DNA of 39,374 nucleotides from positions 1 to 39,374 of IMG/VR virus record IMGVR_UViG_3300029009_000036. One strand, 5' to 3'. Source of the stretch: a virus (lineage: Duplodnaviria; Heunggongvirae; Uroviricota; Caudoviricetes). Shown piece by piece: positions 1 through 38,472 of this stretch. The notes beneath the pieces are model-generated. The model made no database searches, had not been told where the DNA came from, and was given only the letters and a program-made list of their open reading frames with translations. Numbering within the stretch: position 1 is the first letter of the stretch; every line of letters begins with the position of its first letter. The translations under genes and the position numbers were made by a program.

Positions 1-167
1 TAATCACCTTTACCGTGAATAATCGCCCCTGTGGTCACCATTTCGGTATACAGCAACGTATTGCGGGAAAGCAGACGCAGGAAATAACGGCAATGTCTGT
101 CCGTCCAGTCGAGCATAGGAGCAATGCTAAACCGAGAATTCCAGTAAACACCAGTTTTTTCAGGCAT
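1..167 (-). CDS. dusA: tRNA-dihydrouridine synthase A, 5' part (gene runs off the left edge of the window)
   Basis: Minus-strand ATG at 167 translates to [55 protein letters not shown] with no stop before position 1; recognised as DusA N-terminus from memory. Absent from ORF track because incomplete. Confidence 0.8.
109..125. other. attL core candidate (within restored dusA 5' end)
   Basis: tcgagcataggagcaat here matches tcgagcatcggggcaat at 38411-38427 (15/17). Confidence 0.5.
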
Positions 168-245
168 CACGCTGGTTTGATTAATTTTTTGTGTTTCATG
201 ATTATCGTGCATTTTTGAACATTTCAGGCTATTTTTCTCGCGTTA

Positions 246-280
246 GGTTCCCGCACAGGTTCCCACGTTTTATGGGAACC
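246..280. promoter_or_regulatory. GGTTCCC(A) repeat cluster upstream of int (candidate integrase arm-type or regulator sites)
   Basis: ggttccc at 246-252 and 258-264, inverted copy tgggaacc at 273-280; the same octamer ggttccca recurs at 38349-38356 next to attR. Confidence 0.35.
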
Positions 281-300
281 CGAAATAACGAGGTCGTGTA

Positions 301-1398
301 ATGGCGTACTATAACATAGAGAAACGACTAAAATCCGATGGCACACCACGCTATCGCTGTAATGTGATTATCAAAGAAAAAGGTGTTATCACTTACAGGG
401 AAAGCAAAACATTCCCTAAACATGCTCATGCCAAAACATGGGGCACACAGAAAGTGATGGAATTAGATCTATATGGCATTCCATCATCAAATGCAGTTGA
501 CGGACTTACAGTCCGTGACTTACTACACAAATATTTAAATGACCCAAATGCCGGAGGTAAAGCAGGCCGTACTAAAAGATATGTGCTGGAACTGCTTATG
601 GATAGTGACATCTCCGCGATCAAACTATCTGAACTGACAGAAAATGACGTAATTGAACATTGCAGGCTAAGAAACAACGCTGGTGCAGGTCCTGCAACAG
701 TCAGCCACGATGTTAGTTATCTTGGCAGTGTTCTGGATGCGGCCAAACCTGTATACGGAATTAATTACACATCAAACCCGGCGAAAAGCGCTCGCCCATA
801 TCTACTTAAACTTGGTTTGATTGGTAAATCAAACCGTCGTAATCGTAGACCAGCATCTGATGAACTGGACATGCTCATTGCAGGCCTTCAACAACGATCT
901 ACTCATAAATGCTCAAAAATTCCGTTCGTTGATATCCTCAAATTTTCTGTATGGTCCTGTATGCGAATCGGAGAAGTATGCCGGTTACGATGGGAAGATC
1001 TCGACCAGGAACAAAAATCTATACTCGTAAGAGACAGGAAAGATCCACGCAAAAAGGAAGGTAACCACATGAAAGTAGCCTTGCTTGGGGAAGCCTGGGA
1101 TATCGTCCAACGACAGCCCCAAAAATCGGAATTCATTTTTCCATATAACAGCACTTCTGTTACTGCGGGATTTCAGAGAGTAAGAAGCAAATTAGGTATT
1201 AAGGATCTGCGATACCATGATTTGCGTAGAGAAGGGGCAAGTCGCTTATTTGAGGCTGGTTTTAGTATTGAGGAAGTCGCCCAAGTTACAGGGCATCGTT
1301 CATTAAACGTGCTATGGCAGGTATATACCGAACTGTATCCGAAATCTTTACATAATCGTTTTGAAGAGCTCCAAAGGAGCAGAAATAAGACCTCTTGA
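301..1398 (+). CDS. Tyrosine-type site-specific integrase (dusA-targeting family inferred from context)
   Basis: 365 aa, ATG at 301 with GAGG upstream; C-terminal catalytic region ...RYHDLRREGASRLFEAGFSIEEVAQVTGHRSLNVLWQVYTELYP typical of tyrosine recombinases; sits directly beside the dusA 5' end. Confidence 0.9.
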   Translation: MAYYNIEKRLKSDGTPRYRCNVIIKEKGVITYRESKTFPKHAHAKTWGTQKVMELDLYGIPSSNAVDGLTVRDLLHKYLNDPNAGGKAGRTKRYVLELLMDSDISAIKLSELTENDVIEHCRLRNNAGAGPATVSHDVSYLGSVLDAAKPVYGINYTSNPAKSARPYLLKLGLIGKSNRRNRRPASDELDMLIAGLQQRSTHKCSKIPFVDILKFSVWSCMRIGEVCRLRWEDLDQEQKSILVRDRKDPRKKEGNHMKVALLGEAWDIVQRQPQKSEFIFPYNSTSVTAGFQRVRSKLGIKDLRYHDLRREGASRLFEAGFSIEEVAQVTGHRSLNVLWQVYTELYPKSLHNRFEELQRSRNKTS

Positions 1399-1459
1399 CA
1401 CTGTTTATCCATACAGTTAAAAATAATGCTGTATACAAACACAGTATGGAGGGACTTTT

Positions 1460-1708
1460 ATGCGTATTGAAATCTGCATAGCCAAAGAAAAAATGACTAA
1501 AATGCCAACCGGTGCTGTGGATGCGTTAAAGGAAGAATTAACCCGACGCATCAGTAAGCGTTATGACGATGTTGAGGTGTTAGTAAAAGCCACCAGCAAT
1601 GATGGCCTTTCTGTTACACGCACCGCAGATAAGGATTCTGCAAAAACTTTTGTTCAGGAGACTCTGAAAGATACCTGGGAATCTGCTGACGAGTGGTTTG
1701 TTCACTAA
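1460..1708 (+). CDS. DinI-family protein (DNA damage-inducible protein I homolog)
   Basis: 82 aa; [11 protein letters not shown]...[16 protein letters not shown] matches the DinI N-terminus and C-terminal WESADxWF motif as I recall them; RBS GGAGGG upstream of ATG 1460. Confidence 0.85.
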
Positions 1709-2056
1709 TAAACACGTAAAATCTGTAACGGCTGGAAATCATTCAATACTCGCACTATCGAAAGTTCACCAGCCAACCGCAGCGCGTTCTTGCATACGAC
1801 GTGGCTGCAGTCTCAACTCCGTCCCCCACCAATCATGATTGGGCAGTACCAGTACAGCACTAGTAAAAACTGGAAATAAGCAGTCTCAGCAAAATACCGG
1901 CCAGACGGTGAGAAGACAAAAAAGATACGCAAAGTAGCCGCGGCCCTTAGTGACATGAAATCCCGCTATACGGGCTTTTTTGTATCTGCACACGATTGAT
2001 TATTAGGTCCGTATAGCTAATAGTGGTCTTAACCTACATATAGAATCAGAGACTTT

Positions 2057-2752
2057 ATGAAAAAGGAAATACTCAAGGCTCTTTGCCCTACATGCGGTGG
2101 GTTACGTAACTGCACTGTGCATGGGAAGCTAACCACTAGCTGGGAGGATTCCCAATATCCAGTTTATGGGTACCATTACCATCACCTACTCCAATGCAAT
2201 GGCTGTGATACTGTCTTCTATCACCACAACGAACACTTCAGTGAGCATACTACCCACGAATATCGTGATGGTGAATTTGTAGAAACGCCTATAGATATGA
2301 TCACTACCTATCCTGCCGCTGAAACATTTCAAGCTCCGATATGGTTATCCAAGCTTGAATCAGTTGATCGTCAGCTCTTTCAAATATTTAATGAAATGTA
2401 TTCTTCATATACTTCTGACCATTTCATTCTTTCGTCCATCGGTTTACGGACGATTTTTGATCGAACTGCTGAACTGTTACAAATTCACCCCGGTTTGCCG
2501 CTTGGTGAAAAAGTTGAAAAATTAAAACAAGATGGAGTCATAGGCGACACTGAGGCATGCGTTATATCTTCAGTAATTGATGCAGGAAACGCCGCCGCAC
2601 ATCGCAGTTGGAGCCCGAATAAAAGTGAGTTCGAACAAATGCTAGAAGCTATAGAAAGTTTTGTCCAAAGAACTATCTTGGGCAAAAAATCACTTGAACA
2701 TATAACCAAACAACTCCCACCTCGGGTTACAAGACCTAAAAATAGTGCATAA
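2057..2752 (+). CDS. Hypothetical cargo protein: N-terminal Cys4 zinc ribbon plus C-terminal helical domain with GNAAAH motif (DUF4145/HEPN-like, unverified)
   Basis: 231 aa; CPTCGG...CNGC pair of CxxC motifs; C-terminal ...VIDAGNAAAHRSW... resembles the R/N..AH signature I associate with DUF4145/HEPN-type domains; lower GC than flanking phage genes. Confidence 0.6.
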   Translation: MKKEILKALCPTCGGLRNCTVHGKLTTSWEDSQYPVYGYHYHHLLQCNGCDTVFYHHNEHFSEHTTHEYRDGEFVETPIDMITTYPAAETFQAPIWLSKLESVDRQLFQIFNEMYSSYTSDHFILSSIGLRTIFDRTAELLQIHPGLPLGEKVEKLKQDGVIGDTEACVISSVIDAGNAAAHRSWSPNKSEFEQMLEAIESFVQRTILGKKSLEHITKQLPPRVTRPKNSA

Positions 2753-2778
2753 TCCGCGATCATCAATGTGGCGTAAGG

Positions 2779-3335
2779 CTATGGTTTACTTGCTACAGGG
2801 AATTTTTTATACACCGTTGAAATATCCAGATCATAAATCAGTGCGACTTGCTGCTGATATATTCCCGATTCAATCAACCTGCCAGCCTGCCCCCATTGTT
2901 CTACTGTCAGCTTTGGCTTTCGCCCACCGTTCCTCCCTTCTTGTCGTGCTGCGGCAAAGCCGCCCTAGTACGTTCGACAATAAACTCTCGCTCCATTTCA
3001 GCCAGGGCACCCATCACATGAAAGAAAAAGCGCCCCATTGGTGTGCTGGTATCAATAGCATCCGTCAGGCTGCGAAAATTAACGCCACGTTCGCGCAACT
3101 CTTCCACCAGCACGACAAGATGCCGCATACTGCGCCCCAGTCGGTCCAGTTTCCAGACCACCAGCGTGTCACCTGCCGATAATGTCCTGAGCAGCTTTTT
3201 CAGTCCTGGTCTGTCGGACTTTGTACCGCTTATCTTGTCTTCAAAAATCAGCTCACATCCTGCACAGTTCAACGCATTACGTTGTAGATCGGTGTTCTGG
3301 TCATTTGTTGATACGCGAACATAGCCAATAAGCAT
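2779..3335 (-). pseudogene. pin: Pin/Gin/Hin-family serine DNA invertase, frameshifted between catalytic and HTH domains
   Basis: ATG at 3335 with AGGAGG RBS; MLIGYVRVSTNDQNTDLQRNAL...LVVWKLDRLGRSMRHL is a canonical invertase catalytic domain; frame breaks near 2962-2968 (...VERTRAALPQHDKKGG...stop at 2907) while a shifted frame continues GGFAAARQEGRNGGKRPKLTVEQWGQAGRLIESGIYQQQVALIYDLDISTVYKKFPVASKP (HTH domain) to 2779. Confidence 0.75.
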
Positions 3336-3390
3336 GATAGCTCCTCCTGACAAAAACAGGAACGATGCCATTTGCGCGCTATTTCTGCAT

Positions 3391-3416
3391 TTTCATAAAC
3401 GTTGGTTTGGGAGAAG
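3391..3416. repeat. Invertase crossover site, left (gix/pix-like)
   Basis: tttcataaacgttggtttgggagaag; its reverse complement cttctcccaaaccaacgtttatgaaa matches 5224-5249 over ~20 bp; AAACC-NN-GGTTT core typical of gix/hix sites. Confidence 0.6.
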
Positions 3417-3754
3417 CGGCAAAAAGGAATGTGGGGACAGGGGCGAATCAGATACCTGATATGGGTAGCTTCACGCTTTCTGTTTCAGGTACTGGATATC
3501 AAAAATTACCATCTGGTTTTATTCTTCAGTGGGGCTCAATCGGCGCTCCAGGCATTGCACAGGATGTGGTAACCCATTTCCCGATTGCATTTCCGAACAG
3601 ATGTCTGCGTGTTTTGGTCTCACAAGACTACACACCAGATAGCGGGGCTGTTGGTTATATTGCCTGTGCAGGTTTTAGTCCCGACCCGGTTAAATTTATA
3701 TCCAGAGCCAGTACTCCAGGTCTCGGCGCTTCATTTTTAGCGTTAGGCTGTTAA
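3402..3754 (+). other. Alternative tail-fibre C-terminal coding segment (silent orientation, no own start)
   Basis: Open frame encoding ...[23 protein letters not shown]..., a tail-fibre C-terminal-like sequence, beginning at the left crossover site and followed by its own tfa gene. Confidence 0.5.
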
Positions 3755-3775
3755 TTTAGCTATATGGAATGAGAA

Positions 3776-4216
3776 ATGAATTATATATATTCCGCGACTA
3801 CAAACTCTTTCTATCCGTTAGAGATGAAAGAGGATTACACTCAAGCTGACTCATGGCCAGATGATGCTGTTGAAGTTGACGAGCAGGTGTATATTGAGTT
3901 TTCCGGATTACCGCCGAAAGGAAAAATCCGTATCGCTGGAGAAAATGGTTTTCCTGCATGGTCTGAAATTCCACCACCAACACATGAGGAACAGATTGCT
4001 GCAGCCGAACTGGAAAAGCAGCAATTGATTAATCAGGCCAACGATTATATGAACAGTAAACAATGGCCTGGTAAAGCGGCTATTGGTCGTCTGAAAGGTG
4101 AGGAACTGGCGCAATATAATTTGTGGCTGGATTATCTGGACGCACTGGAACTGGTTGATTCCTCCAGTGCTCCAGATATTGAATGGCCTACGCCTCCGGC
4201 AGTTCAGGCCAGATGA
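3776..4216 (+). CDS. Tail fibre assembly protein (alternative copy, Tfa family)
   Basis: 146 aa; C-terminus ...LWLDYLDALELVDSSSAPDIEWPTPP shares the conserved Tfa C-terminal motif with the convergent 4188-4781 gene. Confidence 0.8.
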   Translation: MNYIYSATTNSFYPLEMKEDYTQADSWPDDAVEVDEQVYIEFSGLPPKGKIRIAGENGFPAWSEIPPPTHEEQIAAAELEKQQLINQANDYMNSKQWPGKAAIGRLKGEELAQYNLWLDYLDALELVDSSSAPDIEWPTPPAVQAR

Positions 4217-4781
4217 CGTCCGGCGCGGTGCTGGTATCTGTTGCCGTCACCGCGTCAATGTAATCCAGCACGGCGTTAAGTCGGGTTGTTTCTGCCTGAG
4301 TCAGTTTCCGTCCGGCCTGTAATTTCAGCTGAATCAGACTAATGGAAGCCATTGCTGCATCAATCAGTGACTGGCGCTGTGCTTCTGCCGCGTCTACTGC
4401 GGCACTGTGTTGTGCCTCAGTGTCTGTCACCCATTTCTCACCATCCCATTTATCGTATGGCGTTAACGGTGAAATCGTGACATAACCGTCTTTGATGGCA
4501 CCGATATAATCCACTGTAGCAGCAGCACCATTTTCGATTGAGTAAACGGTCTCATTGCGATGGTCTTCTTCATGGCTCCATCCCTTACCTGTAAATACTG
4601 CCACTCTTCCCGGAATGTTTTCGCCAAGGTCAATACCAGTGGAATAGGCGGGCATACTTACGCCAGTATTAATATATTCATCAGACCAGCCCGTATACTC
4701 AGATGTTTCAGCATCATAATAAAAACAACGCATATCGCCCGGCACTGTAGCCAGCCCATTTTCATCAAAAACAGGTTTCAT
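4188..4781 (-). CDS. Tail fibre assembly protein (Tfa family, expressed orientation)
   Basis: 197 aa; ATG at 4781 overlaps tail-fibre stop (TAATG); C-terminus ...AVLDYIDAVTATDTSTAPDVIWPELPEA. Confidence 0.85.
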   Translation of the reverse strand: MKPVFDENGLATVPGDMRCFYYDAETSEYTGWSDEYINTGVSMPAYSTGIDLGENIPGRVAVFTGKGWSHEEDHRNETVYSIENGAAATVDYIGAIKDGYVTISPLTPYDKWDGEKWVTDTEAQHSAAVDAAEAQRQSLIDAAMASISLIQLKLQAGRKLTQAETTRLNAVLDYIDAVTATDTSTAPDVIWPELPEA

Positions 4782-5527
4782 TATTTAGCCCTCACCAGAA
4801 AGTTAAATGCAATATTTCGCGGTCTGACTGCAACAAAATTCACACCATCACCCACAGAGTTACTGGTGAAATTAAATCGTGAAAATCCTGGCTGATTTCC
4901 GGCGATGCCATCATGAAAGTTAATTGCGTGTCCCGCACCTTCGCCTATATTCCCGGCAAACTGAGAAAAGTTTGTAGCGTTCTGCCAGCTTAATAATTCG
5001 CGACCACCGTCTACACCTCGCCCGTCATCCCAGACACGAATGAAATCACCGCGTGCGTCAGGTAATGCCAGCGCCGGAAACACTTTCGCCAGCACAGGGT
5101 AATCAGTGGCAGAAAATTTCGCCCCGTTGAACTTCAAAAACACCATACTGGACCAGCTGTCGATTACAGTATTTGGCATTGCAGCGGACGGCCAGAAGAA
5201 CGGAACGCCAATAGCTGGAGCACCTTCTCCCAAACCAAGGTTTTCGAGAGCTGTTTTCACCGTGCCGTCCGATTTGATATCGCCAAACGGATTCTTGCGG
5301 CTTAACAGCAGCGCACGAAGCGCGGTAAGCAGCTGGTCGTGCCGCGCCTTCTCCAGACTGGCACCGGATGCCTCAACAACGCTACAAAGTTCTTCCTGCA
5401 ACATGTCAAAGTAGTCATCATCCAGATCGGTGGCAGGCGTGCCAGTCTGGGGGTTACCACGGGTAAAACCGTTCTTACCCGCGCCGAACTTATCCTTCTG
5501 CGCGGTTTTCGTGTCTATACGATGCAT
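4781..5527 (-). CDS. Side tail fibre protein (constant N-terminus outside, variable C-terminus inside the invertible segment)
   Basis: 248 aa, ATG at 5527; right crossover site lies at codon ~97; resembles e14-type short tail fibres from memory. Confidence 0.8.
5224..5249. repeat. Invertase crossover site, right (gix/pix-like), inside tail-fibre gene
   Basis: cttctcccaaaccaaggttttcgaga; inverted relative to 3391-3416; the two sites bracket ~1.84 kb. Confidence 0.6.
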
Positions 5528-5530
5528 GGA

Positions 5531-6115
5531 TTACTCCGGATATTTAAAAATTACGTAGGTATGCGACGGGCAGAGTTTGTTAAGCACACACTCGACAACG
5601 GTGTCACCCCAGATACGCAGCGCGGAATCACAGGGATCGCCACATGTCATCCAGGTGGTGTTGGTGGCGGCTGGCATGTTGATCTGCCAGTAATACCGCC
5701 ATTCCGGCGCATTCACCGCGTCAGTACAGGCCGATGAGCAGGTGAACGTGCTTTTATCGTATCGCGTGATAGTGGCGTCTGGTCTGCCCAGGGCAGCAAG
5801 CTGTGCAAGGTAAAAATCCTCATTGATGCCGCCCGCCAGATTAACCTTCGCATCCAGCCGTTGCTGACGCTGGCGAAGGGTCTGTGTCCCTGCGGGAATA
5901 CATTCATCCGGCAGACCGCACAGACGCTCCCAGCGATTTATCAGTTCGGTGGTGGTGCGCGGATCCAGCTCCCGCATCAGGGCATCCGCACGCTGATGAA
6001 TGCGGGTTAATGACGGTGCCGCACCGGCAATCGCCGGATCGCTGGCTGACCACGCCGGACCGGGGGGCAACAGTGCCGACAACAGACGGATGTAATCATC
6101 GTTTGTCACGTCCAT
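5531..6115 (-). CDS. Phage tail protein, YmfQ / Mu gp48-like
   Basis: 194 aa, ATG at 6115; position between baseplate J and tail fibre; size and sequence recall E. coli e14 YmfQ. Confidence 0.75.
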
Positions 6116-7164
6116 GAAATCGTCCCCAGTACCGCCAGTTCATTTTTTGCAATGGAGATATTGTCTGCCGGTGCAAGCAACTGATGGCTGTATTCCCCGT
6201 TCGCACCGGAAATCGCCTCACTGATACGCGACACCTTCAGTTCTCCCTGCGGATAACCATCACGCAGCAGGAACGAACGCAACTCGGCGGTGATGGCAGC
6301 CCGTATTTCCGGTGTGTCCGGCGTCACGCGGATATGAAAATCCACTTTATGCGCCACCGGCCTGAATACATACAAATCAGAGCCTGCCACCGGGGCCAGT
6401 GGCTCAATGTGTTGTCTTGCCGCCGTTTCCGTTGATTCTTCCGGAATGGGATTAATCAGGTCACTGCTGGCAATCATCACACCGACAGTTCCCGTTCCCA
6501 TCCAGTGACGGTATGTCCATGCGCGGGTAATGCCGGGCACTTCTTTAGCCCAGACAACATAGTCCCCGTCAGCCCCGCCCTGAGGCGTCCAGTAATACCG
6601 CTCAATGACGCGGGCGCGCCACGTTTCCAGATCTTCAGTATCGAATCCGCCAGTCAGGGTATCTGCAACACCGGAAGACGGCAGACCATTCACCGGCGTG
6701 ACCAGGATTAATGCCGTACCGTCGTCAGCGTTACCGACCGCGCCTGCACTTGAGCAGGCGATCGGCACGCGCAGGACACCACCGGAGCTGGTTGCATCAG
6801 CAGTTGCCGTGTACTGCACCAGGTCATCGCGCTGAATCACGCTCCCGGCGGTCACCTTCAGGCCATCGCTGACACCTTCCCAGCGCATATACCCGCTGGC
6901 AGCCGTGGCCCCCTTGCGCGGACACCGTTTCATCGCAGCATGTCGCGCCAGCCAGGACTCATCGCACAGGTCAGGCAGCATGTTCATTGCCAGATAATCG
7001 ATGTAACCGTAAACCGTATGCAGCGCCGCCGCATACACCTTTGCCCGCACGTCTTCATCCATGCGCCGGAGCGTGTCGCTGACGTCCAGCCTGGCGAATA
7101 AATCGTTACGGAGCATACTGATATTTTCTGCCAGCGTCGGGCGCTGAAATTCACTGTCCGCCAT
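6106..7164 (-). CDS. Baseplate J-like protein (Mu gp47 / P2 gpJ family)
   Basis: 352 aa, ATG at 7164; conserved position in Mu-like baseplate module. Confidence 0.8.
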
Positions 7165-10573: not shown

Positions 10574-10589
10574 GGCGTCACCTCAAATA

Positions 10590-28680: not shown

Positions 28681-28699
28681 ACTTCGTTTCTCCTCTTGA

Positions 28700-30550: not shown

Positions 30551-30552
30551 GA

Positions 30553-31371: not shown

Positions 31372-31604
31372 GCTGCACCTCCGAGATGCTTCATGTTTTT
31401 TCCGGAGCGAAAGGCTATAAGCGGCATACTGACGCGGTAATTACGGCCCAGCGGTTCACAAATCACCTTCTGGCATTCACGGTCAACCAGGCTAACACGT
31501 AGAACATGCCCTGCAGGCGTGGTGTACCACTGCCCAACTGTAGGAATTGATGTTTTTTTACGCTGAAGCAAACGGCAAATATTGAGGATCAACGGATTAA
31601 GCAT
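31368..31604 (-). CDS. Small hypothetical early protein
   Basis: 78 aa, ATG at 31604, 4-nt overlaps with both neighbours. Confidence 0.4.
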   Translation of the reverse strand: MLNPLILNICRLLQRKKTSIPTVGQWYTTPAGHVLRVSLVDRECQKVICEPLGRNYRVSMPLIAFRSGKNMKHLGGAA

Positions 31605-32433
31605 GACGATGCCCTCCGCTGATATTCAGGAGACGGTGAATATGAAAATTAGCCTTATCCGCCAAACGAATACGTTCAGCCTGCAATTTAAGAAGTGTTT
31701 CTACCAGAACCTGATGCGCCTGCGGATCCGAAAGAGTTACCTTGCGCAGAGCACGTAGTGCAGTTGTTACATAACTGAGTTTATGTAAGTCTTCATCATT
31801 CAGACGAGCGAGGGTTGGGAGAGTAGTCATGGTGACAGCCCCTATGTTGAATTCAAAGAACTCACCACATGGGACGCCAATCACAGAGGTGGTGAGACGT
31901 ACAGGGTTGGCGTAACCGGTCAACATAGAACCCGGCGCATCTTGCGATGCCCCTGCACGCCCCACCATAATTTGGACGTAGCAATGCTCATGATACGAAA
32001 AAACCGCATGAGCGCGGTTATGCTCTATATTGAATTCCAGGACGCCAATCCCGACACCCGCTTTATAAGGTGCCTGAACAGTGTAACGTCCCGGAATGGC
32101 AGAATCAATGTGCTGGTGGTCCTTCACACTCAACAAAATCACGCCTGAATTTCCACAAAGGACTAAAGCACTCATGCGGGTAGTCTTTGCGAAGATAGAT
32201 AACGCGCTGTGTTTCTGGCTCCCAACGAATAACATGAACATAAAGTCCTCTTCCGTCACGAAACCAGCGGTTAAGTTCCTGCACAACTCGCCCCCCACAG
32301 TCAGGTAAAGTTCTCTGTGGTTACTTACAGCCAGGTGATTTGGTAATCTGCATTCATGCCGTAACAACAGGTGTTCAGCGACGCTGACCACCAGCTGTTG
32401 CGACAAACGGTTATTTGCCGTTAAACTGTTCAT
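31597..32433 (-). CDS. Hypothetical early protein
   Basis: 278 aa, ATG at 32433; no domain recognised by eye. Confidence 0.5.
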   Translation of the reverse strand: MNSLTANNRLSQQLVVSVAEHLLLRHECRLPNHLAVSNHRELYLTVGGELCRNLTAGFVTEEDFMFMLFVGSQKHSALSIFAKTTRMSALVLCGNSGVILLSVKDHQHIDSAIPGRYTVQAPYKAGVGIGVLEFNIEHNRAHAVFSYHEHCYVQIMVGRAGASQDAPGSMLTGYANPVRLTTSVIGVPCGEFFEFNIGAVTMTTLPTLARLNDEDLHKLSYVTTALRALRKVTLSDPQAHQVLVETLLKLQAERIRLADKANFHIHRLLNISGGHRHA

Positions 32434-32993
32434 GCGTTAGTTTCTCCACAGACACAAAACGCCACGACGCCCGGAGCTGCACACTCGCGGGCGTCACTCT
32501 TTTCTGGAGCGCAAAAGATTTTGTAGACCAGTGCTGCATGCTCCTGGAGCTTCGAAATTGACAGATACAACTCATCATTAATTGCTGTCTGCTCGTGTGG
32601 CTCCACTACCCCATCTTCGATTGCCGAACGAATCTGCTTTGAGTAACTCCCGATCTGTTCGATGACTTCCAGCAGGCGCTGGTTTATATCGGCGTTCTCT
32701 ACTTCCTCAATTTCAGGAAGCGATACAAACACCCCACCAGCAGACTGTGCGACAGCATCCGCAATGTAGTGAGTGCCAGCCGCGCGCTGTAAAATCATTG
32801 CCCATCCCAGCGGGAAAATCTGATCGCCATCTGCACGAAGGCGGTTGAATAAAGCGTTCTCTGTTACATCCAGCCACTCAGCAGCTTCAGCGTAACCCCC
32901 CGGCAACGCCGCGATAGTTTTTCTGACAGCTTTCACGTACCACTCAGGCTGTTTTTCTACTTTCCAGTGATGCTTACCCACGGTTAGCCTCAT
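32430..32993 (-). CDS. Hypothetical early regulatory protein (CII-like position)
   Basis: 187 aa, ATG at 32993; first gene after cro. Confidence 0.5.
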   Translation of the reverse strand: MRLTVGKHHWKVEKQPEWYVKAVRKTIAALPGGYAEAAEWLDVTENALFNRLRADGDQIFPLGWAMILQRAAGTHYIADAVAQSAGGVFVSLPEIEEVENADINQRLLEVIEQIGSYSKQIRSAIEDGVVEPHEQTAINDELYLSISKLQEHAALVYKIFCAPEKSDARECAAPGVVAFCVCGETNA

Positions 32994-33024
32994 CGTTCTG
33001 TGGTTAAAAATTGAAGGTGTTCTG

Positions 33025-33225
33025 TTAATCTTTCGGATAGATATCCGGTCTTAAGTCAGATTTCGTAATTGCACCTGACGTGCATTGCTCAAGTTTTTTA
33101 GCCAGCACAAAACTGGCTTTTTTATAACCATTGAAAACTAGCCGTAAGTAGCCTGGTGTTGAGCCAACTTTTCCGGCCAACTCGCCCTGCTGTTCTTTGG
33201 TTAAAGAGTCCCAATACGCTTTCAT
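33025..33225 (-). CDS. Cro-like HTH repressor
   Basis: ATG at 33225 (MKAYWDSLTKEQQGELAGKVGSTPGYLRLVFNGYKKASFVLAKKLEQCTS...) with GGAGGT RBS 9 nt upstream; 66 aa. Confidence 0.7.
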   Translation of the reverse strand: MKAYWDSLTKEQQGELAGKVGSTPGYLRLVFNGYKKASFVLAKKLEQCTSGAITKSDLRPDIYPKD

Positions 33226-33231
33226 ACAATA

Positions 33232-33248
33232 TGTACCTCCGATATACA
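33232..33248. promoter_or_regulatory. Operator-like site 1 (overlaps cro RBS)
   Basis: tgtacctccgatataca, consensus TGTACC-N5-NNTACA shared with two other sites. Confidence 0.45.
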
Positions 33249-33281
33249 TATTACATGATTGAGATGAACCTTCAAGATACT

Positions 33282-33298
33282 TGTACCCTATCGGTACA
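33282..33298. promoter_or_regulatory. Operator-like site 2 (cI-cro intergenic, perfect inverted repeat)
   Basis: tgtaccctatcggtaca: TGTACC / GGTACA arms with 5-bp spacer. Confidence 0.5.
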
Positions 33299-33315
33299 AA
33301 GGTTTTAATTTCGTT

Positions 33316-33990
33316 ATGAAAACAGTCCATGACATCCGGCGGTCTAACGCCAGAAAACTGAGAGATGGTGTTGGCGGGAATTCTTCCTTTGCCACCATGA
33401 TTGATCGCGAGCCAACCCAGACCAGCAGGTTTATGGGAGATGGTGCTACTAAAAATATCGGTGACAGCATGGCACGGCACATCGAAAAATGTTTCGACCT
33501 GCCTGTCGGATGGCTTGATCAAGAACACCAGACAACAAACATCACAAAAAAACCTGATGTTTCAATTACTAACAAACAAATAACGTTAGTCCCTGTCATA
33601 TCATGGGTACAGGCCGGAGCATGGAAAGAAGTTGGCTATTCTGAGGTTGATTTGAGCACAGCAGAAACTTATCCCTGCCCTGTACCCTGTGGCGAAATGA
33701 CTTATATCTTGCGGGTGATTGGTGATTCAATGATTGATGAGTACCGCCCGGGAGACATGATTTTTGTTGATCCCGAAGTCCCTGCCTGCCACGGTGACGA
33801 CGTTATTGCATTGATGCACGATACAGGCGAAACCACCTTCAAGCGATTGATAGAAGATGGAACACAGCGTTATCTCAAAGCATTAAACCCAAACTGGCCT
33901 GAGCCTTACATTAAGATTAACGGTAATTGCTCTATAATTGGTACAGTAATTTTCTCAGGAAAACCAAGAAGATACCAAATAAAGGCCTAA
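33316..33990 (+). CDS. CI-like repressor (HTH plus S24 LexA-type autopeptidase domain)
   Basis: 224 aa, ATG at 33316; C-terminal ...LRVIGDSMIDEYRPGDMIFVDPE... has GDSM Ser nucleophile context typical of S24 peptidases. Confidence 0.85.
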   Translation: MKTVHDIRRSNARKLRDGVGGNSSFATMIDREPTQTSRFMGDGATKNIGDSMARHIEKCFDLPVGWLDQEHQTTNITKKPDVSITNKQITLVPVISWVQAGAWKEVGYSEVDLSTAETYPCPVPCGEMTYILRVIGDSMIDEYRPGDMIFVDPEVPACHGDDVIALMHDTGETTFKRLIEDGTQRYLKALNPNWPEPYIKINGNCSIIGTVIFSGKPRRYQIKA

Positions 33991-34001
33991 TCAATATTTA
34001 T

Positions 34002-34026
34002 AACCTGCTTCGGCAGGTTTTTTTAT
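34002..34026 (+). terminator. Intrinsic terminator after cI
   Basis: aacctgc-ttcg-gcaggtt followed by ttttttt. Confidence 0.7.
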
Positions 34027-34028
34027 AC

Positions 34029-34056
34029 TTGACAATGTACCCTTGAGATACATAAT
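34029..34056 (+). promoter_or_regulatory. pL-like early-left promoter with embedded operator site 3 (34036-34052)
   Basis: TTGACA (34029-34034), 16-bp spacer, CATAAT (34051-34056); tgtacccttgagataca fills the spacer. Confidence 0.55.
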
Positions 34057-34474
34057 GTATCTAAAAGAAACATGCCACAGGCAAGATTAAACAAAATTTG
34101 GTTGTAACACGGCGTATGGCACATGCGTCGTTAGCGGTCTGGGGACGTTAAAGGGGACAATCCACTCCTTGCTCGGGCAAACAAACCAGGTAGCCGGAAT
34201 GTGCAAGTCAATGAGGATGCTGATAAGACGCCTAACCAGCGTGGCGATTCGGTTTGACGCCTGGGAAGAGACCAGGGTGCAACGATGAGGGCATTTATGG
34301 AACCGCGACAAAGTGTGGTGCCGTAACTGGCTAAGTGCTCTCAGCGTTGTGGTAATCCGCGAAATGGCGCGGCGGTAAGTATGGCGGGGTTACTCTTTCC
34401 CCGTTGAGGACACCGGATTGTCAGGTTGACCATACACCTGAGTGACAACCCCACCACAACAGCCACTGCTTTGG

Positions 34475-34520
34475 CGGTACCAGTTTGTACACTTGCTTCC
34501 GGCTGGTACCGCTCTTTTTA
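34475..34520 (+). terminator. Terminator-like hairpin inside the early-left leader
   Basis: Perfect 10-bp stem gcggtaccag / ctggtaccgc (34475-34484 / 34503-34512), 18-nt loop, followed by tcttttta. Confidence 0.5.
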
Positions 34521-34654
34521 CAAAACAGAGAAGAGCATCACCGGACGACGGGCTCATAACCCAATCCATCCGGGCGGCTGCACCGCAGGTGTTCTTCTCT
34601 GTTTTGTGGAGAAACCAACCGACCTTGCAGGGTCGATATGATGAGGAGCAGCAA

Positions 34655-35017
34655 ATGGCTAGCGAACGCAGTACTGATGTGCAGGCATTTATCGGGGAGC
34701 TGGACGGCGGCGTATTTGAAACCAAAATCGGCGCAGTTCTCAGTGAAGTCGCTTCCGGTGTGATGAACACGAAAACCAAAGGTAAGGTCTCGCTCAACCT
34801 GGAAATCGAACCGTTTGATGAGAACCGTGTGAAAATCAAACACAAACTCTCATATGTTCGCCCGACTAACCGCGGGGAAATTTCCGAAGAAGACACCACC
34901 GAAACGCCGATGTATGTCAATCGCGGTGGTCGCCTGACTATTCTGCAGGAAGACCAGGGACAATTACTGACTCTTGCCGGTGAGCCTGACGGAAAACTCC
35001 GCGCAGCAGGTCATTAA
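34655..35017 (+). CDS. Hypothetical early-left protein (YfdP-like)
   Basis: 120 aa, ATG at 34655 with GAGGAG RBS; ORF-track N-terminal extension lacks a start signal. Confidence 0.65.
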   Translation: MASERSTDVQAFIGELDGGVFETKIGAVLSEVASGVMNTKTKGKVSLNLEIEPFDENRVKIKHKLSYVRPTNRGEISEEDTTETPMYVNRGGRLTILQEDQGQLLTLAGEPDGKLRAAGH

Positions 35018-35082
35018 TATCGTTCTTAATTAACTGATTATTTATCTCATCACTGAATATCTTAATATAGTGAGGACTTATT

Positions 35083-35907
35083 ATGTCTCAGAACTTAGAC
35101 GCAACCGCAATTAATCAAATCCATGCCCTTATTTCTGCTCAGGGTGTTAATGAAATTATCAGTAAGATTGGTGCCGATGCTGTGGCATTGCCTGAGAATT
35201 TCCGCATTCATGATCTGGAAAAATTTAATTTAAATCGCTTCCGTTTCCGTGGTGCGCTTTCCACTGCCAGCATCGATGACTTTACCCGTTATTCTAAAGA
35301 TCTTGCAGATGAAGGCACCCGCTGCTTTATCGATGCCGATAATATGCGAGCAGTCAGTGTGCTTAACCTGGGTACTATTGATGAACCAGGTCACGCAGAT
35401 AACACCGCCACTCTCAAACTGAAAAAGACAGCACCGTTCTCTGCCCTGTTGTCTGTTAACGGCGAGCGTAACTCCCAGAAGTCACTGGCAGAATGGATTG
35501 AAGACTGGGCCGACTACCTTGTGGGCTTTGATGCTAATGGTGACGCTATTCAGGCAACAAAAGCGGCTGCGGCGGTCCGTAAAATCACAATTGAAGCGAA
35601 CCAGACTGCTGATTTTGAAGACAATGACTTCAGCGGCAAACGCTCCCTGATGGAGTCTGTCGAAGCGAAGACCAAAGACATTATGCCAGTGGCATTTGAA
35701 TTTAAATGCGTTCCGTTTGAAGGCCTGAAAGAACGTCCATTTAAATTACGACTCAGCATTATCACTGGTGATCGCCCTGTACTGGTTCTGCGCATTATTC
35801 AGCTGGAAGCAGTGCAGGAAGAAATGGCTAACGAATTTCGTGATCTGCTTGTTGAAAAATTCAAAGACAGCAAAGTAGAAACCTTTATTGGTACTTTCAC
35901 CGCCTGA
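35083..35907 (+). CDS. DUF2303-family protein (YfdQ-like)
   Basis: 274 aa, ATG at 35083 with GTGAGGA RBS; size and sequence recall CPS-53 YfdQ. Confidence 0.75.
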
Positions 35908-36083
35908 TTTCATTACTGCAAATGCCCCTGCGGGGGCGTTTACGGAAGCGATAATTTTAACTATTGCCGCCCCTATAAAGAACCATTAAACGATAACGTG
36001 ACGTAGCTATTGATAGTAAATGAAGCACTTGCAAAATAATTGCATTGCGTATATATACGCACATGTGTTGTATTACAGCGATA

Positions 36084-36878
36084 ATGGTAAAGCAAATGAT
36101 TAACTCTGAAGCAATTGAGCAACTAATGTGGTTATGGTCCTTATTTGACATTAAATTCTTATCTATTTTTGCCGCAGGCTTCACTATATATTTTGGCGTA
36201 CAAAAAATATCAAAAAAGGTGACAGTATCGTATTCAGCAAATGTAAGTAAAATATATGACATGCATATATCAACCATAATCCTGACTAATAAAAGAGATA
36301 ATGCAATTGCTATATCTTCAATCAATATGGAGGTTGAAGGGAAAGGGATACTACAAGTTATTAAATTTGACTCCCCTCTTCTTCTAAAGAACTATGATTC
36401 TTTAAAAGTTGAACTACCAAAATTTAGCAGCCTTTATAATAATGATGGCATAGTTAAGTTAGATATTTCTGATAAGTTTCATTTTTATATAATCACGACA
36501 TCTGGAGATGAAATCAAATGTATTTCTGAAAATAAACACGTGGCACCAAATATGAAAAACAAAATAATTCCAGACATAATAAAATTTAATGGCATTGTCT
36601 TAACAAACAGAATGTCTTATATTTTTTTCTATGCAAATGACAACGGAGAGAAATACTGCATAATAGATGCTTCATTGTCCATAAATGGCGACAACCCATT
36701 TCATTTTCATGTTCTTAAAGAAGATAAATTAAGAGATTTTTCTAGCATCCTTATTGGTTACGGATATCACCAACGGTTTAAAAGTTATGCATTATTTAAA
36801 ATAGACAACCATCTTGCTCCTTCTTTGGTTTTAAATAAATCAATGATAGAAAATAATATTATTGAAATGAATAAGTAA
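36084..36878 (+). CDS. AT-rich cargo gene: membrane-anchored protein of unknown function
   Basis: Start uncertain (ATG 36063, 36084 or 36096; track start 36045 is TTG); N-terminal TM helix LMWLWSLFDIKFLSIFAAGFTIYFGV then ~230-aa Asn/Lys/Ile-rich soluble domain; candidate promoter TTGCAA-N17-TATATA just upstream (hexamer positions approximate). Confidence 0.6.
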   Translation: MVKQMINSEAIEQLMWLWSLFDIKFLSIFAAGFTIYFGVQKISKKVTVSYSANVSKIYDMHISTIILTNKRDNAIAISSINMEVEGKGILQVIKFDSPLLLKNYDSLKVELPKFSSLYNNDGIVKLDISDKFHFYIITTSGDEIKCISENKHVAPNMKNKIIPDIIKFNGIVLTNRMSYIFFYANDNGEKYCIIDASLSINGDNPFHFHVLKEDKLRDFSSILIGYGYHQRFKSYALFKIDNHLAPSLVLNKSMIENNIIEMNK

Positions 36879-36914
36879 CTCACCGGGTGCAGCCGGTTAT
36901 GATGGAGAAATGAT

Positions 36915-37187
36915 ATGAATACCTTGTTTTTACTGATGGCTGAATTCAATACCCTAAACATTGAACTCTCAGCAGTTAGTCAAAAATACTTTGGTATGAG
37001 TCCAGCCACGGCAGAAGCAAAAGCAAACGCTTGTAAGTTGCCCGTTCCAACATATCGCATCGGCACATCACAAAAAGCAAAACGTTGCATCAATATTCAG
37101 GATCTTGCGGAATACATAGACAAAAGGCGAGAAGAAGGGCGTGCTGAGTGGGAAAGGGTCAGAACCCATAAACAAAGGCTCATTTAA
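36915..37187 (+). CDS. Excisionase-like winged-helix DNA-binding protein (PrtN/AlpA-like, unverified)
   Basis: 90 aa, ATG at 36915 with GGAGAAA RBS; MNTLFLLMAEF... recalls PrtN-family proteins; attR-proximal position opposite int mirrors torI in KplE1. Confidence 0.55.
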   Translation: MNTLFLLMAEFNTLNIELSAVSQKYFGMSPATAEAKANACKLPVPTYRIGTSQKAKRCINIQDLAEYIDKRREEGRAEWERVRTHKQRLI

Positions 37188-37194
37188 ATAGAAT

Positions 37195-37228
37195 ATGAAT
37201 AAACCCATCCAAAGGTGGGTTTATTCAT
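37195..37228. terminator. Perfect 13-bp hairpin between convergent genes
   Basis: atgaataaaccca / tgggtttattcat with 8-nt loop tccaaagg; U-rich tract on minus strand; overlaps stop of the 37221-37682 gene. Confidence 0.65.
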
Positions 37229-37682
37229 AATGTTGAAGAGCAGCGAGTATCAGTTTTTTATGCCGTTTAACCATGATTTTAGATATCTCAACTGCACATC
37301 GAACTTGTCTCATACAATGATCTGTAATGCGACCTTTTAGCACGTCGCCATATTGGATGGCTATTTTCTCTTTAATAATTTCAAGATCGAAAGCAGCATG
37401 AGCCTCAATGCAATTAACAAATGAGTCCCATTTAAGAAAATCATGGTCCTCTCTATTAATTTCGACCTGACAAGCCATAAGATCATTGTTTCTCTTAATA
37501 AATTCATTTATATCTGAATTTATTAGAAGAACTAAAAGAGGTTCACAGCAAACAACCACCATATATTTTACTTTAGGTGGGGTCGTAAAATCACAATGAA
37601 GATACAATACATCACCGGGTGATATACCTCTTTCACGACTAAAATTAGCCTTAAAATCAGGAGGGAAACAATCACCCAGCAT
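37221..37682 (-). CDS. Uncharacterised partner protein of Panacea-domain gene (candidate toxin/effector)
   Basis: 153 aa from ATG 37682 (TTG 37691 alternative); starts 6 nt after Panacea-gene stop; AT-rich; no domain recognised. Confidence 0.6.
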   Translation of the reverse strand: MLGDCFPPDFKANFSRERGISPGDVLYLHCDFTTPPKVKYMVVVCCEPLLVLLINSDINEFIKRNNDLMACQVEINREDHDFLKWDSFVNCIEAHAAFDLEIIKEKIAIQYGDVLKGRITDHCMRQVRCAVEISKIMVKRHKKLILAALQHYE

Positions 37683-37687
37683 AAGTA

Positions 37688-38269
37688 TCAATATCCGTTC
37701 TTCAGATAATCCAGTATTAATTTGCTATTTTTTAGCTGTGCAACTATCGATTCCAAAGACATCTCACCATTGTGATCTGCCTGTTCCCATGCCGCGTCAT
37801 GGCTCATGGTTCTGATAGCTTCAAAGGACATGTTTCCAAGCATCGCGATAGACTTATCAATACACTCTAAATCTGAGTCACTAAAAAAGTCTTCATCAGC
37901 TTCACGGCTCGGCACAATCATCATACCTGATACAGAAAATGCTTTTCGCACAGAATCGACATCACAACCATTAGGAATGTAACGTCCATCTCCACGAGCA
38001 ATTTTTATAATATCGTATGTGTTGCTTGCTACAGGCCCATCCTTCATAGCGTTATAGTGATCGCCCGTTATGAGGCGTCCAAAACTTTCAAGGTGAAACC
38101 TGTCAGCATAATAAAGAATTTTTCCGACATGATAGATATCTGGGATCGGTGCTTTAGAGGCGACGTACAGAATGGCCTCTAAAGCCTTTTCTGAATCAAA
38201 CCTTACATTTAGCATCAATACACCCTTCATCCAAACAACATCGTCAAGCTCTGGCAAATGCAACCGCAT
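37688..38269 (-). CDS. Panacea-domain (DUF4065, SocA-like) protein, candidate antitoxin
   Basis: 193 aa, ATG at 38269 with AGGAGG RBS; core ...KILYYADRFHLESFGRLITGDHYNAMKDGPVASNTYDIIK... fits the K.LYYA....G.P......A...GPV...Y pattern I associate with DUF4065. Confidence 0.65.
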   Translation of the reverse strand: MRLHLPELDDVVWMKGVLMLNVRFDSEKALEAILYVASKAPIPDIYHVGKILYYADRFHLESFGRLITGDHYNAMKDGPVASNTYDIIKIARGDGRYIPNGCDVDSVRKAFSVSGMMIVPSREADEDFFSDSDLECIDKSIAMLGNMSFEAIRTMSHDAAWEQADHNGEMSLESIVAQLKNSKLILDYLKNGY

Positions 38270-38390
38270 CCGCCTCCTGCAATCTTAAAGTCTTCACCTA
38301 CGCTAGGTCAATTGAAGTGATGAGCAAATGATGCTTTCTAAGAATAACAGGTTCCCAATAGGCTCCCACAAAGTGTATAACTACTTGTTT

Positions 38391-38472
38391 TTCAAAAACG
38401 GTACATCCTATCGAGCATCGGGGCAATCGAGAAACGGTAAGCGGGATAAACAGTGTGTGATTCTGCTGGCAT
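38391..38472 (-). pseudogene. dusA: Displaced original 5' end of dusA (remnant at attR)
   Basis: Minus-strand ATG 38472: [21 protein letters not shown] then diverges to a stop; ...RFSIAPMLD matches the restored dusA copy at the left end. Confidence 0.6.
38411..38427. other. attR core candidate
   Basis: tcgagcatcggggcaat, direct repeat of 109-125. Confidence 0.5.

What the first reader, a model, noticed from the sequence alone, without database searches (positions are those of the whole stretch)
1..38472. Prophage restores the 5' end of dusA; original 5' end displaced to attR
dusA at the left edge begins [21 protein letters not shown]..., while a 26-codon fragment [21 protein letters not shown] ending in a stop lies at 38391-38472 next to zur. 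The shared block TCGAGCATnGGnGCAAT at 109-125 and 38411-38427 marks the likely crossover. This fits integrases known to target the dusA 5' end; the intact dusA copy now uses phage-derived N-terminal codons and promoter.
Basis: partly seen in the sequence, partly recalled or inferred. Interest (0 to 1): 0.5.

Follow-up and report, generated by a model that had tools for sequence, protein, structure and literature searches.

The report
Prophage inserted in dusA gene start
A 38.3-kb E. coli prophage sits inside the start of the tRNA-modification gene dusA and supplies a replacement gene start, which is a well-documented behaviour of a known integrase family, so the finding is correct but ordinary.

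Summary
The observation and its interpretation are both right, and the phenomenon is already published.

- **Junctions.** The shared block TCGAGCATnGGnGCAAT occurs only at 109-125 and 38411-38427, with 0 expected by chance.
- **Empty site.** 1,043 complete E. coli genomes carry the uninterrupted zur-dusA site. Joining the window's two host arms rebuilds that site with one mismatch in 498 bases.
- **attP.** Free phage genomes (mEp460, SKA5) carry an attP made of the two phage arms around TCGAGCAT.
- **Integrase.** The integrase (301-1398) is 98.6-99.5% identical to those of mEp460 and Stx phage 1720a-02. mEp460 is listed by Farrugia et al. 2015 as carrying a dusA-associated integrase homologue. 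For 1720a-02, integration into dusA, a 7-base core and the phage dusA' ORF were shown experimentally.
- **Excision factor.** A PrtN/RdfN-type gene lies at 36915-37187.

Refinements:
- Strand exchange lies within the 8-bp TCGAGCAT. Its third base segregates reciprocally among lysogens.
- Heptamer repeats (GGTTCCC) flank the core like arm-type sites, and the heptamer differs in related phages.
- The phage-derived promoter is inferred, not shown.

Side finding: the K-12 reference dusA 5' end itself looks like a relic of such an element.

The parts
1..108 (-). Host-derived body of dusA (continues beyond the left edge of the window)
   Evidence: Identical to the empty-site genome L001 up to window 110. 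Annotated as dusA in RefSeq relatives.
109..125 (.). Left junction attL (host-core-P' arm). The 8-bp identity core TCGAGCAT is at 109-116, followed by phage-type AGGAGCAAT. The core covers the Met-Leu-Asp codons of the conserved APMLD motif.
   Evidence: Three-way alignments with attB and attP. Pattern count 2 against 0 expected.
117..212 (-). Phage-supplied 5' end of the chimeric dusA: 32 codons from the ATG at 212 ([32 protein letters not shown]).
   Evidence: Identical in free-phage SKA5 and near-identical in mEp460. The long ORF has constant length and no stops in 11 diverged elements. RefSeq uses the start at 212.
231..236 (-). Candidate -10 element (AAAAAT) for the chimeric dusA, about 20 nt upstream of the ATG at 212. 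Inferred only.
   Evidence: An AAAAT motif is conserved at the same spacing in diverged elements. It is not called by the consensus scan.
246..280 (.). P'-arm heptamer repeats GGTTCCC (246-252 +, 258-264 +, 274-280 inverted). Candidate integrase arm-type binding sites between the dusA 5' surrogate and int.
   Evidence: The same 2-direct-plus-1-inverted layout, with a different heptamer, occurs in YeP1, Morganella phage IME1369_02 and SMHB1.
301..1398 (+). dusA-specific tyrosine integrase (365 aa)
   Evidence: PF00589, E 8.4e-21. 98.6-99.5% identity to the integrases of mEp460, 1720a-02, SKA5 and Lys8385Vzw. Catalytic residues R (MRIGE), HxxR (HDLRR), H (GHRS) and Y (VYTEL) are visible.
109..38410 (.). 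The prophage, 38,302 bp from core to core: an SfV/SfIV/vB_EcoM-720R4/SKA5-like myovirus mosaic with an HK97-type head, a Mu-type contractile tail and a lambdoid early region
   Evidence: Megablast to phages, 96-98% identity over 45-74% of each half. Gene content follows the RefSeq annotation of a related lysogen.
36915..37187 (+). PrtN-like gene, probable recombination directionality factor (RdfN)
   Evidence: PF11112, E 1.5e-22. RdfN was shown to be the RDF of dusA-specific elements in PMC8409611.
38350..38367 (+). P-arm heptamer repeats GGTTCCC (38350-38356) and GGCTCCC (38361-38367)
   Evidence: Conserved in mEp460 and SKA5 attP.
38411..38427 (.). Right junction attR (P arm-core-host). The identity core TCGAGCAT is at 38411-38418, followed by host-type CGGGGCAAT.
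38392..38472 (-). Displaced native dusA 5' end: 26 codons plus stop. The first 18 to 21 codons (M1 to P17-D21, depending on where in the core the exchange occurred) are host-derived, and the last five codons (RMYRF) plus the stop are read from phage DNA.
   Evidence: Colinear with the native dusA start in L001. PGAP annotates the equivalent remnant as a partial tRNA-dihydrouridine synthase pseudogene in a K-12-type lysogen.
38473..38627 (.). Native zur-dusA intergenic region. It retains the native dusA upstream region, which now faces into the prophage. Candidate extended -10 TGnTATAGT near 38510-38518.
   Evidence: Identical to the empty site. Relaxed promoter scan, candidate only.
38628..39143 (+). 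zur (host)
   Evidence: RefSeq annotation of the matching loci.

Best explanation
A temperate myovirus of 38,302 bp is integrated by site-specific recombination into the 5' end of the E. coli dusA gene. Its tyrosine integrase (301-1398), of the dusA-associated integrase (DAI) family and the mEp460/1720a-02 type, recombined the phage attP with the host attB. The attP reads ...ACATCCTA TCGAGCAT AGGAGCAAT... and the attB reads ...GTCCAG TCRAGCAT CGGGGCAAT... . The attB lies over the codons for the conserved APMLD motif about 100 nt into the long form of the gene. Strand exchange took place inside the 8-bp identity block (inferred overlap TCGAGCA, flanked in attP by the inverted repeat TCCTAT/ATAGGA). 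The phage P' arm carries a surrogate dusA 5' end, so the left junction recreates a full-length in-frame dusA. Its first ~32 codons (17 if the internal ATG is used) and all of its upstream signals are phage DNA. The native first 20 codons, with their upstream region, remain as a 26-codon stump at the right junction next to zur. Heptamer repeats on both arms probably serve as arm-type Int binding sites. The PrtN-like gene near the right end is the probable excision factor. What is shown here: the junctions, attB, attP, integrase identity and the ORF fusion. What is inferred: the exact cleavage positions, promoter use, arm-site function and present-day excision competence.
For: - The junction block is unique to the two sites.
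- The empty site exists in 1,043 genomes, and the rebuilt attB matches CFT073, Nissle 1917 and others at 99.8% over 498 nt.
- The attP of free phages mEp460 and SKA5 equals the two phage arms around TCGAGCAT. SKA5 even annotates the 40-aa 'tRNA-dihydrouridine' ORF.
- Diagnostic bases at 107-108 and at 117/120 sort strictly by side. Core position 3 (A in 1,042 of 1,043 empty sites, G in attP) appears as A-left/G-right in AVS0790, G-left/A-right in T309.Ta3, and G/G here. This is what a mismatch inside the overlap predicts.
- The integrase is 98.6-99.5% identical to those of mEp460, 1720a-02 and SKA5, with a PF00589 domain.
- A PrtN/RdfN domain gene is present.
- The arm repeat layout is conserved, with a different heptamer, in four diverged phages.
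Against: - No sigma-70 consensus promoter is called on the dusA strand in the phage DNA upstream of the chimeric gene. Only weak candidates exist.
- Only 55-70 codons of dusA are in the window, so integrity of the rest is inferred from near-identical genomes.
- Both junctions carry the phage G allele at core position 3. Simple heteroduplex segregation does not give that result. It needs mismatch repair or a rare G-type attB (1 of 1,043 genomes).
- Excision of this particular prophage has not been observed.
Confidence: 0.96

Rival explanations
1. The same integration event occurred, but the element is now a fixed, defective prophage that can no longer excise. The junctions would then be historical scars and not working att sites.
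For: The resolvase-family (serine recombinase) gene next to the tail-fibre segment is only 154 aa, covers only the catalytic domain, and is annotated as frameshifted in a related lysogen. This shows some decay. Excision was not observed here.
Against: The int gene is full length and 99% identical to those of phages isolated as particles. The RdfN-type gene is intact. Both cores are perfect, and the arm repeats are identical to those of free phages. Head, tail, terminase and lysis ORFs have the same lengths as in related annotated prophages and phages.
Confidence: 0.12
2. The chimeric dusA is translated from the internal ATG at 167 (MPEKTG...). On this reading the upstream MHDN... codons are untranslated leader or promoter sequence.
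For: The best relaxed promoter match on this strand (CTGAAA-15-GATAAT, window 227-202) has its -10 inside codons 3-4 of the long ORF. The nucleotides ATGCAC..AAT are conserved with little synonymous variation, which would also fit a DNA signal.
Against: In 11 diverged elements the long ORF has exactly 22 variable codons and no stop, while the other two frames carry stops in 8 of 11 each. Median nucleotide identity is only 41%. Pectobacterium, Morganella and Xenorhabdus elements have no Met at the internal position. RefSeq annotates the long form.
Confidence: 0.2
3. The two similar blocks are a coincidence or the product of homologous recombination or duplication, not integrase-mediated site-specific recombination.
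For: None beyond the shortness (8 bp) of the perfect identity.
Against: The block has 0 expected occurrences. Exact attB and attP partners both exist. An adjacent integrase of a family with proven dusA specificity is present (PMC6328086).
Confidence: 0.01

Closest known systems
dusA-associated integrase (DAI) elements, Farrugia et al. 2015 (PMC4482086)
   Same: Integrase gene next to and divergent from dusA. Integration within the 5' end. Semi-conserved direct repeats at both junctions. The element supplies a replacement 5' end. A PrtN homologue lies near the far end. About half of the described elements are prophages, including E. coli lysogens and phage mEp460.
   Different: Nothing essential. 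This is a further E. coli instance with a different cargo (an SfV-like myovirus).
Stx2dact phage 1720a-02 in Citrobacter rodentium, Balasubramanian et al. 2019 (PMC6328086)
   Same: The integrase is 99.2% identical. That phage integrates about 100 bp into dusA and has a 7-base core shared by attL, attR, attB and attP. Its phage dusA' ORF is in frame with the host gene. Its int is required for phage production, measured there as attP detection, and attP was detected in vivo.
   Different: That phage is a lambdoid Stx-converting phage in another host. Here the same integration module is attached to a contractile-tailed phage without stx.
Enterobacteria phage mEp460 and Escherichia phage SKA5 (free phage genomes)
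   Same: The attP region, from the arm repeats through the core and surrogate dusA 5' end to int and dinI, is nearly identical. SKA5 also shares tail genes.
   Different: mEp460 is a lambda-like siphovirus. SKA5 lacks the DUF4145 gene found at 2057-2752.
IMEVchUSA3 and other Vibrio dusA-specific islands, Rivard et al. 2021 (PMC8409611)
   Same: Same target and same logic. [quoted passage not shown] The PrtN-like RdfN is the excision factor.
   Different: Those are mobilisable islands controlled by IncC plasmid activators, not phages, and their integrases are distant.
ICE SXT at the 5' end of prfC
   Same: [quoted passage not shown]
   Different: Unrelated target and element type. This is an analogy only.

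Membership tests
dusA-associated/specific integrase (DAI) elements | Tyrosine recombinase with the R-H-R-H plus Y catalytic set | tested here: met
   PF00589, 74.9 bits. R in MRIGE, HDLRR, GHRS and VYTEL are visible in the translation.
dusA-associated/specific integrase (DAI) elements | Sequence relationship to named family members | tested here: met
   98.6% identity over 365 aa to the integrase of mEp460, a phage that Farrugia et al. list among the bacteriophage hits of their DAI homologue search. 99.2% identity to that of 1720a-02 (PMC4482086; PMC6328086).
dusA-associated/specific integrase (DAI) elements | [quoted passage not shown] | tested here: met
   The core at 109-116 lies 97-104 nt into the long dusA ORF. 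The int gene starts 89 nt upstream of the dusA start, on the opposite strand.
dusA-associated/specific integrase (DAI) elements | Semi-conserved ~21-bp direct repeats at both junctions, matching attB and attP | tested here: met
   A 17-nt block with 2 differences at both junctions. attB is present in 1,043 genomes and attP in free phages. The published sequence logo could not be read (figures are not held). However, the C. rodentium attB quoted in PMC6328086 (TCCAGTCGAGCATGGGAGC) matches this core.
dusA-associated/specific integrase (DAI) elements | The element supplies a replacement 5' end that keeps dusA in frame | tested here: met
dusA-associated/specific integrase (DAI) elements | PrtN-like RdfN gene on the other side of attP from int | tested here: met
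   PF11112, E 1.5e-22, at 36915-37187, which is 1.2 kb from the right junction.
dusA-associated/specific integrase (DAI) elements | Excision as a circle that restores the native dusA | not testable with these tools
   Support is indirect only. Free phage genomes contain the predicted attP. One empty-site genome carries the phage allele at core position 3, a possible excision footprint.
SfV-like phages (Shigella phages SfV, SfI, SfII, SfIV) | Shared structural and early genes at high nucleotide identity | tested here: met
   96-98% identity over 45-69% of each half of the prophage.
SfV-like phages (Shigella phages SfV, SfI, SfII, SfIV) | Integration/accessory module of the Sf serotype-converting phages (from my own knowledge: integration at tRNA-thrW with O-antigen modification genes beside int) | tested here: not met
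   The matches to SfV, SfI, SfII and SfIV begin only at about window 5224 (query position 5108), so none covers int or the left end. The integration module here is the dusA type. No tRNA gene is in the window. O-antigen modification genes were not searched for specifically.

The most novel reading that the evidence does not exclude
The 5' end of the reference E. coli K-12 dusA gene (MHGNSEMQKINQTSAMPEKTD...), shared by about 4,290 of 5,426 complete genomes, may itself be a fossil left junction of an older dusA-specific element. The ancestral short start (MPAESHTVYPAY...) would then survive only in about 1,100 genomes, with CFT073, Nissle 1917 and ATCC 25922 among the listed examples. The 'MHxN + 22 codons' signature would mark similar fossils in Kosakonia, Yersinia, Xenorhabdus, Photorhabdus and others. 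If so, repeated phage traffic has permanently rewritten the N-terminus and upstream signals of a housekeeping gene in most E. coli, and experiments that treat K-12 dusA as 'native' use an already chimeric gene.
Probability: 0.7. Interest if true: 0.35.

Novelty: already known. Interest (0 to 1): 0.15.

Why it matters
For annotation, it fixes the prophage borders to the base. The element runs core to core for 38,302 bp. The short ORF at 38392-38472 is a displaced gene stump and not a gene. The dusA beside int is a host-phage chimera and not a pseudogene.

Biologically it is one more example of a documented strategy: insert into a conserved gene and carry a spare 5' end, so the host loses nothing.

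The small additions here could guide experiments on this integrase family:
- natural mapping of the exchange region through an A/G polymorphism;
- heptamer repeats on both arms whose sequence differs between related phages;
- evidence for the longer start codon;
- the K-12 relic.

None of these changes the general picture.

Tried and rejected
- **Consensus promoter and terminator scans of both junctions.** No sigma-70 match was found on the dusA strand upstream of either the chimeric or the native start, so the scan cannot support or deny the 'phage promoter'. A relaxed scan gave only weak candidates.
- **PADLOC search.** No hits for the accessory genes DUF4145, the Panacea-domain pair and others.
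- **tRNA scan.** None found, so this is not a tRNA-targeting element.
- **Genome-contig scan for dusA loci.** Deciding which E. coli dusA start is ancestral therefore rests on more distant Enterobacterales only.
- **Error.** My zur query started two bases late and was out of frame, so the zur identities printed there are not used.
- **GGTTCCC count over the whole window.** The total (9 against 4.2 expected) is only weakly significant. The argument rests on the clustering of 4 copies at the att arms and on the conserved layout in other phages.
- **Considered and rejected.** A chance repeat, homologous recombination, and the idea that the right-junction fragment is a phage-borne decoy. The fragment is colinear with native dusA in empty-site genomes.
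Full report
**1. The observation**

On the minus strand, window 167..3 translates to [55 protein letters not shown]. Window 38472..38392 translates to [26 protein letters not shown] followed by a stop. The block TCGAGCATnGGnGCAAT is found only at 109-125 and 38411-38427, even with one mismatch allowed, and none of 100 shuffles gave any match. zur (38628-39143) and the start of yjbJ follow on the right. The description is accurate apart from a one-base slip: the fragment with its stop spans 38392-38472.

**2. Empty site**

Every one of 5,426 complete E. coli genomes matches the flanks. In about 1,100 of them the right-junction query matches from its position 112 (window 38411) and runs straight into an annotated dusA.

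In one such genome (L001, strain Z0117EC0055), dusA and zur are 155 bp apart. A three-way alignment gave these results:
- Window 1-110 is identical to this locus.
- Window 38411 onward is identical to it, except for one base.
- The locus carries TCAAGCATCGGGGCAAT at the junction point.

Joining window 1-116 to 38419-38800 gives a 498-nt sequence. It matches CFT073, Nissle 1917, ATCC 25922 and others end to end at 99.8%. In all, 1,043 genomes cover at least 80% of it.

**3. attP**

The integrase protein (301-1398) finds isolated phages at 98.6-99.5% identity: Lys8385Vzw, PhiR40_1, mEp460, phiSTEC1575-Stx2k, SKA5 and 1720a-02.

In mEp460 and SKA5 the DNA upstream of int reads ...AACGGTACATCCTA TCGAGCAT AGGAGCAATGCTAAACCGAG.... 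To the left of the core it equals window 38350-38410, and to the right it equals window 117-300. SKA5 even annotates the 40-codon 'tRNA-dihydrouridine' ORF there.

So attL is host-core-P', attR is P-core-host, and the element measures 38,302 bp from core to core.

**4. Where the exchange happened**

Bases 107-108 (host AG, phage TA) and bases 117 and 120 (phage A and A, host C and G) sort strictly by side. The exchange therefore lies within TCGAGCAT (109-116 and 38411-38418).

The third base of this block is A in 1,042 of 1,043 empty sites, G in one (strain 2012C-4502), and G in attP. Near-identical prophages show different combinations:

| Genome | Left junction | Right junction |
|---|---|---|
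| AVS0790 | A | G |
| T309.Ta3 | G | A |
| This window | G | G |

Reciprocal segregants are what a tyrosine recombinase gives when a mismatch lies in the overlap between its two staggered cuts and is resolved by replication (established mechanism, applied here by inference). The G/G state needs mismatch repair or a G-type attB. The single G-type empty site may be an excision footprint.

In attP the core is embedded in TCCTAT-CGAGC-ATAGGA, a 6-bp inverted repeat that would suit core-type Int binding (read, inference).

**5. Other parts of the recombination module**

- **Arm repeats.** GGTTCCC occurs nine times in the window, and four of those lie at the att arms: 246, 258 and 274 (inverted) on the int side, and 38350 on the other side, followed by the variant GGCTCCC at 38361. 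Yersinia phage YeP1 (integrase 68% identical), Morganella phage IME1369_02 and Salinivibrio phage SMHB1 (about 55%) have the same layout around a TCGAGCAT- or TCCAGCAT-type core. The layout is two direct repeats on one arm, and two direct plus one inverted just upstream of int. The heptamers differ: GCACCCC, GGACACC and GTCTCCC. I read these as arm-type sites that change along with the integrase. I did not find this in the papers I read; a search of PMC8409611 for 'arm-type' gave no occurrence.
- **Excision factor.** The ORF at 36915-37187 has the PrtN domain (PF11112, E 1.5e-22). Rivard et al. showed that this protein family (RdfN) is the excision factor of dusA-specific elements (PMC8409611).

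**6. The chimeric gene**

The core covers the Met-Leu-Asp codons of the conserved APMLD motif. Everything upstream of it in the intact copy is phage DNA.

An in-frame ATG at 212 gives [21 protein letters not shown]..., and RefSeq uses it in equivalent lysogens.

I compared dusA loci from other Enterobacterales:
- Every locus with a DAI integrase immediately upstream starts with ATG CAC nnn AAT (AAC in one integrase-less locus with the same signature). Exactly 22 highly variable codons then follow before RF(S/A).
- Across 11 sequences the median nucleotide identity is 41%.
- None has a stop in this frame, whereas the two other frames have stops in 8 of 11 each. Shuffled versions are stop-free only 7-47% of the time.

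I therefore favour the start at 212, giving 32 phage-supplied codons and a 345-aa protein against 331 aa for the native form.

The promoter remains unresolved:
- The consensus scan finds nothing on this strand.
- A conserved AAAAT about 20 nt upstream of the ATG (window 236-231) is a candidate -10.
- A weaker candidate overlaps codons 3-4.
- That a dusA-specific element can supply a working promoter was shown for IMEVchUSA3 in E. coli, with reduced expression (PMC8409611).

**7. The displaced end**

The stump at the right junction keeps the native upstream region, which is identical to the empty site. A candidate extended -10 lies there. It now points into the prophage, towards the Panacea-domain gene pair on the same strand. 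Whether that matters is unknown.

**8. The element**

The two halves match vB_EcoM-720R4, SfIV, SfII, SfI, SfV and SKA5 at 96-98% over 45-74%. ORF lengths for sheath, tube, tape measure, baseplate, capsid, protease, portal, terminase and lysis genes agree with annotated relatives.

It is thus an SfV-like myovirus whose integration module has been exchanged for the dusA type. In one search the matches to the Sf phages begin only at about window 5224 and do not cover int. It looks intact, but excision was not tested.

**9. Comparison with what is known**

- Farrugia et al. (PMC4482086) defined the dusA-associated integrases, the 5'-end replacement and the frequent PrtN gene. They listed E. coli lysogens and phage mEp460.
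- Balasubramanian et al. (PMC6328086) worked with phage 1720a-02, whose integrase is 99.2% identical to this one. They sequenced attL, attR, attB and attP and found a 7-base core. They described the phage dusA' ORF, found int to be required for phage production (measured as attP), and detected attP in vivo.
- dusA and 'yjbM' are listed as Stx-phage insertion sites (PMC8065619).
- PGAP already labels the displaced stump as a partial pseudogene in a K-12-type lysogen.

The finding is a correct reading of a known system.

**10. Frequency**

| Feature | Complete E. coli genomes (of 5,426) |
|---|---|
| dusA-int-dinI junction (at least 80% of window 1-1500) | 727 |
| Left-junction 80-mer | 603 |
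| This phage arm joined to the native host arm at the right junction | 80 |

**11. Side result: the K-12 locus**

K-12-type genomes (about 4,290) match window 1-215 at about 90%, well past the core. From the core outward, K-12 follows the phage P' arm and not the native sequence. Its N-terminus MHGNSEMQKINQTSAMPEKTD... has the element signature.

In K-12 a frameshifted DUF2713 gene (yjbL/yjbM) lies between dusA and zur, and the native 5' end is gone.

Enterobacter, Kluyvera, Phytobacter, Cedecea and Buttiauxella, which have no integrase upstream, have short starts like the B2-type form.

I conclude that the K-12 dusA start is probably a relic of an old integration.

Noticed in passing
window 1-215 compared with K-12 locus L002 2285-2408: The reference K-12 dusA 5' end (MHGNSEMQKINQTSAMPEKTD...) is homologous to the phage P' arm and not to the native short start. 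K-12-type genomes (about 4,290 of 5,426) have a frameshifted DUF2713 gene (yjbL/yjbM) between dusA and zur and lack the native 5' end. This is probably a fossil of an older dusA-specific element. Similar 'MHxN' starts without a nearby integrase occur in Kosakonia, Yersinia, Xenorhabdus and Photorhabdus loci (L034, L041, L067, L080-L083).
   Followed up: partly
window 111 and 38413 (third base of the core): A natural A/G polymorphism is A in 1,042 of 1,043 empty sites and G in attP. Near-identical lysogens show A/G (AVS0790), G/A (T309.Ta3) and G/G (this window). One empty site (2012C-4502, L015) carries G and may be an excision footprint.
   Followed up: yes
window 2910-3371 (-), 3397-3416 and 5224-5243: A 1.85-kb tail-fibre segment is flanked by 20-nt inverted repeats (AAACGTTGGTTTGGGAGAAG / CTTCTCCCAAACCAAGGTTT). 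It holds opposed sets of tail-fibre tip and assembly genes and lies next to a resolvase-family (serine recombinase) gene, which resembles a Mu G-segment-like host-range switch (comparison from my own knowledge). The recombinase ORF is only 154 aa (catalytic domain only), and its counterpart is annotated as frameshifted in a related lysogen, so the segment may be locked.
   Followed up: partly
window 37221-38269 (-): A two-gene cassette sits at the very right end of the prophage: a SocA/Panacea-domain protein (193 aa) overlapping a 156-aa protein with no family hit. It is possibly a Panacea-type toxin-antitoxin pair. It lies on the same strand as, and downstream of, the displaced native dusA upstream region. 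PADLOC gave no hit.
   Followed up: partly
window 31885-31972 (-) and 31997-32073 (-): Rfam finds a C4 antisense RNA (80 bits) and isrK (60 bits) inside the early region, overlapping the mechanically called ORF that has an Ash-family domain. This suggests a P1/P7-style antisense-controlled regulatory module (my reading) in addition to the repressor with an S24 peptidase domain at 33316-33990.
   Followed up: no
window 2057-2752 (+): A DUF4145 gene lies between dinI and the recombinase gene. It is absent from the otherwise similar phage SKA5 and is a possible accessory (moron) gene of unknown role.
   Followed up: no
window 38560-39374 compared with K-12-type genomes: The zur-yjbJ region is only about 93% identical between the genomes that share this window's type (CFT073, Nissle 1917 and others) and K-12-type E. 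coli. To my knowledge that is unusually divergent for core genes, and it suggests that an old recombination or replacement tract surrounds the dusA site.
   Followed up: no
L016 (record titled Enterobacter hormaechei B17-3): The B2-type E. coli DusA is 98% identical to the DusA of a genome labelled Enterobacter hormaechei, far closer than to other Enterobacter species (91-94%). This may reflect a mislabelled genome or a transferred segment.
   Followed up: no
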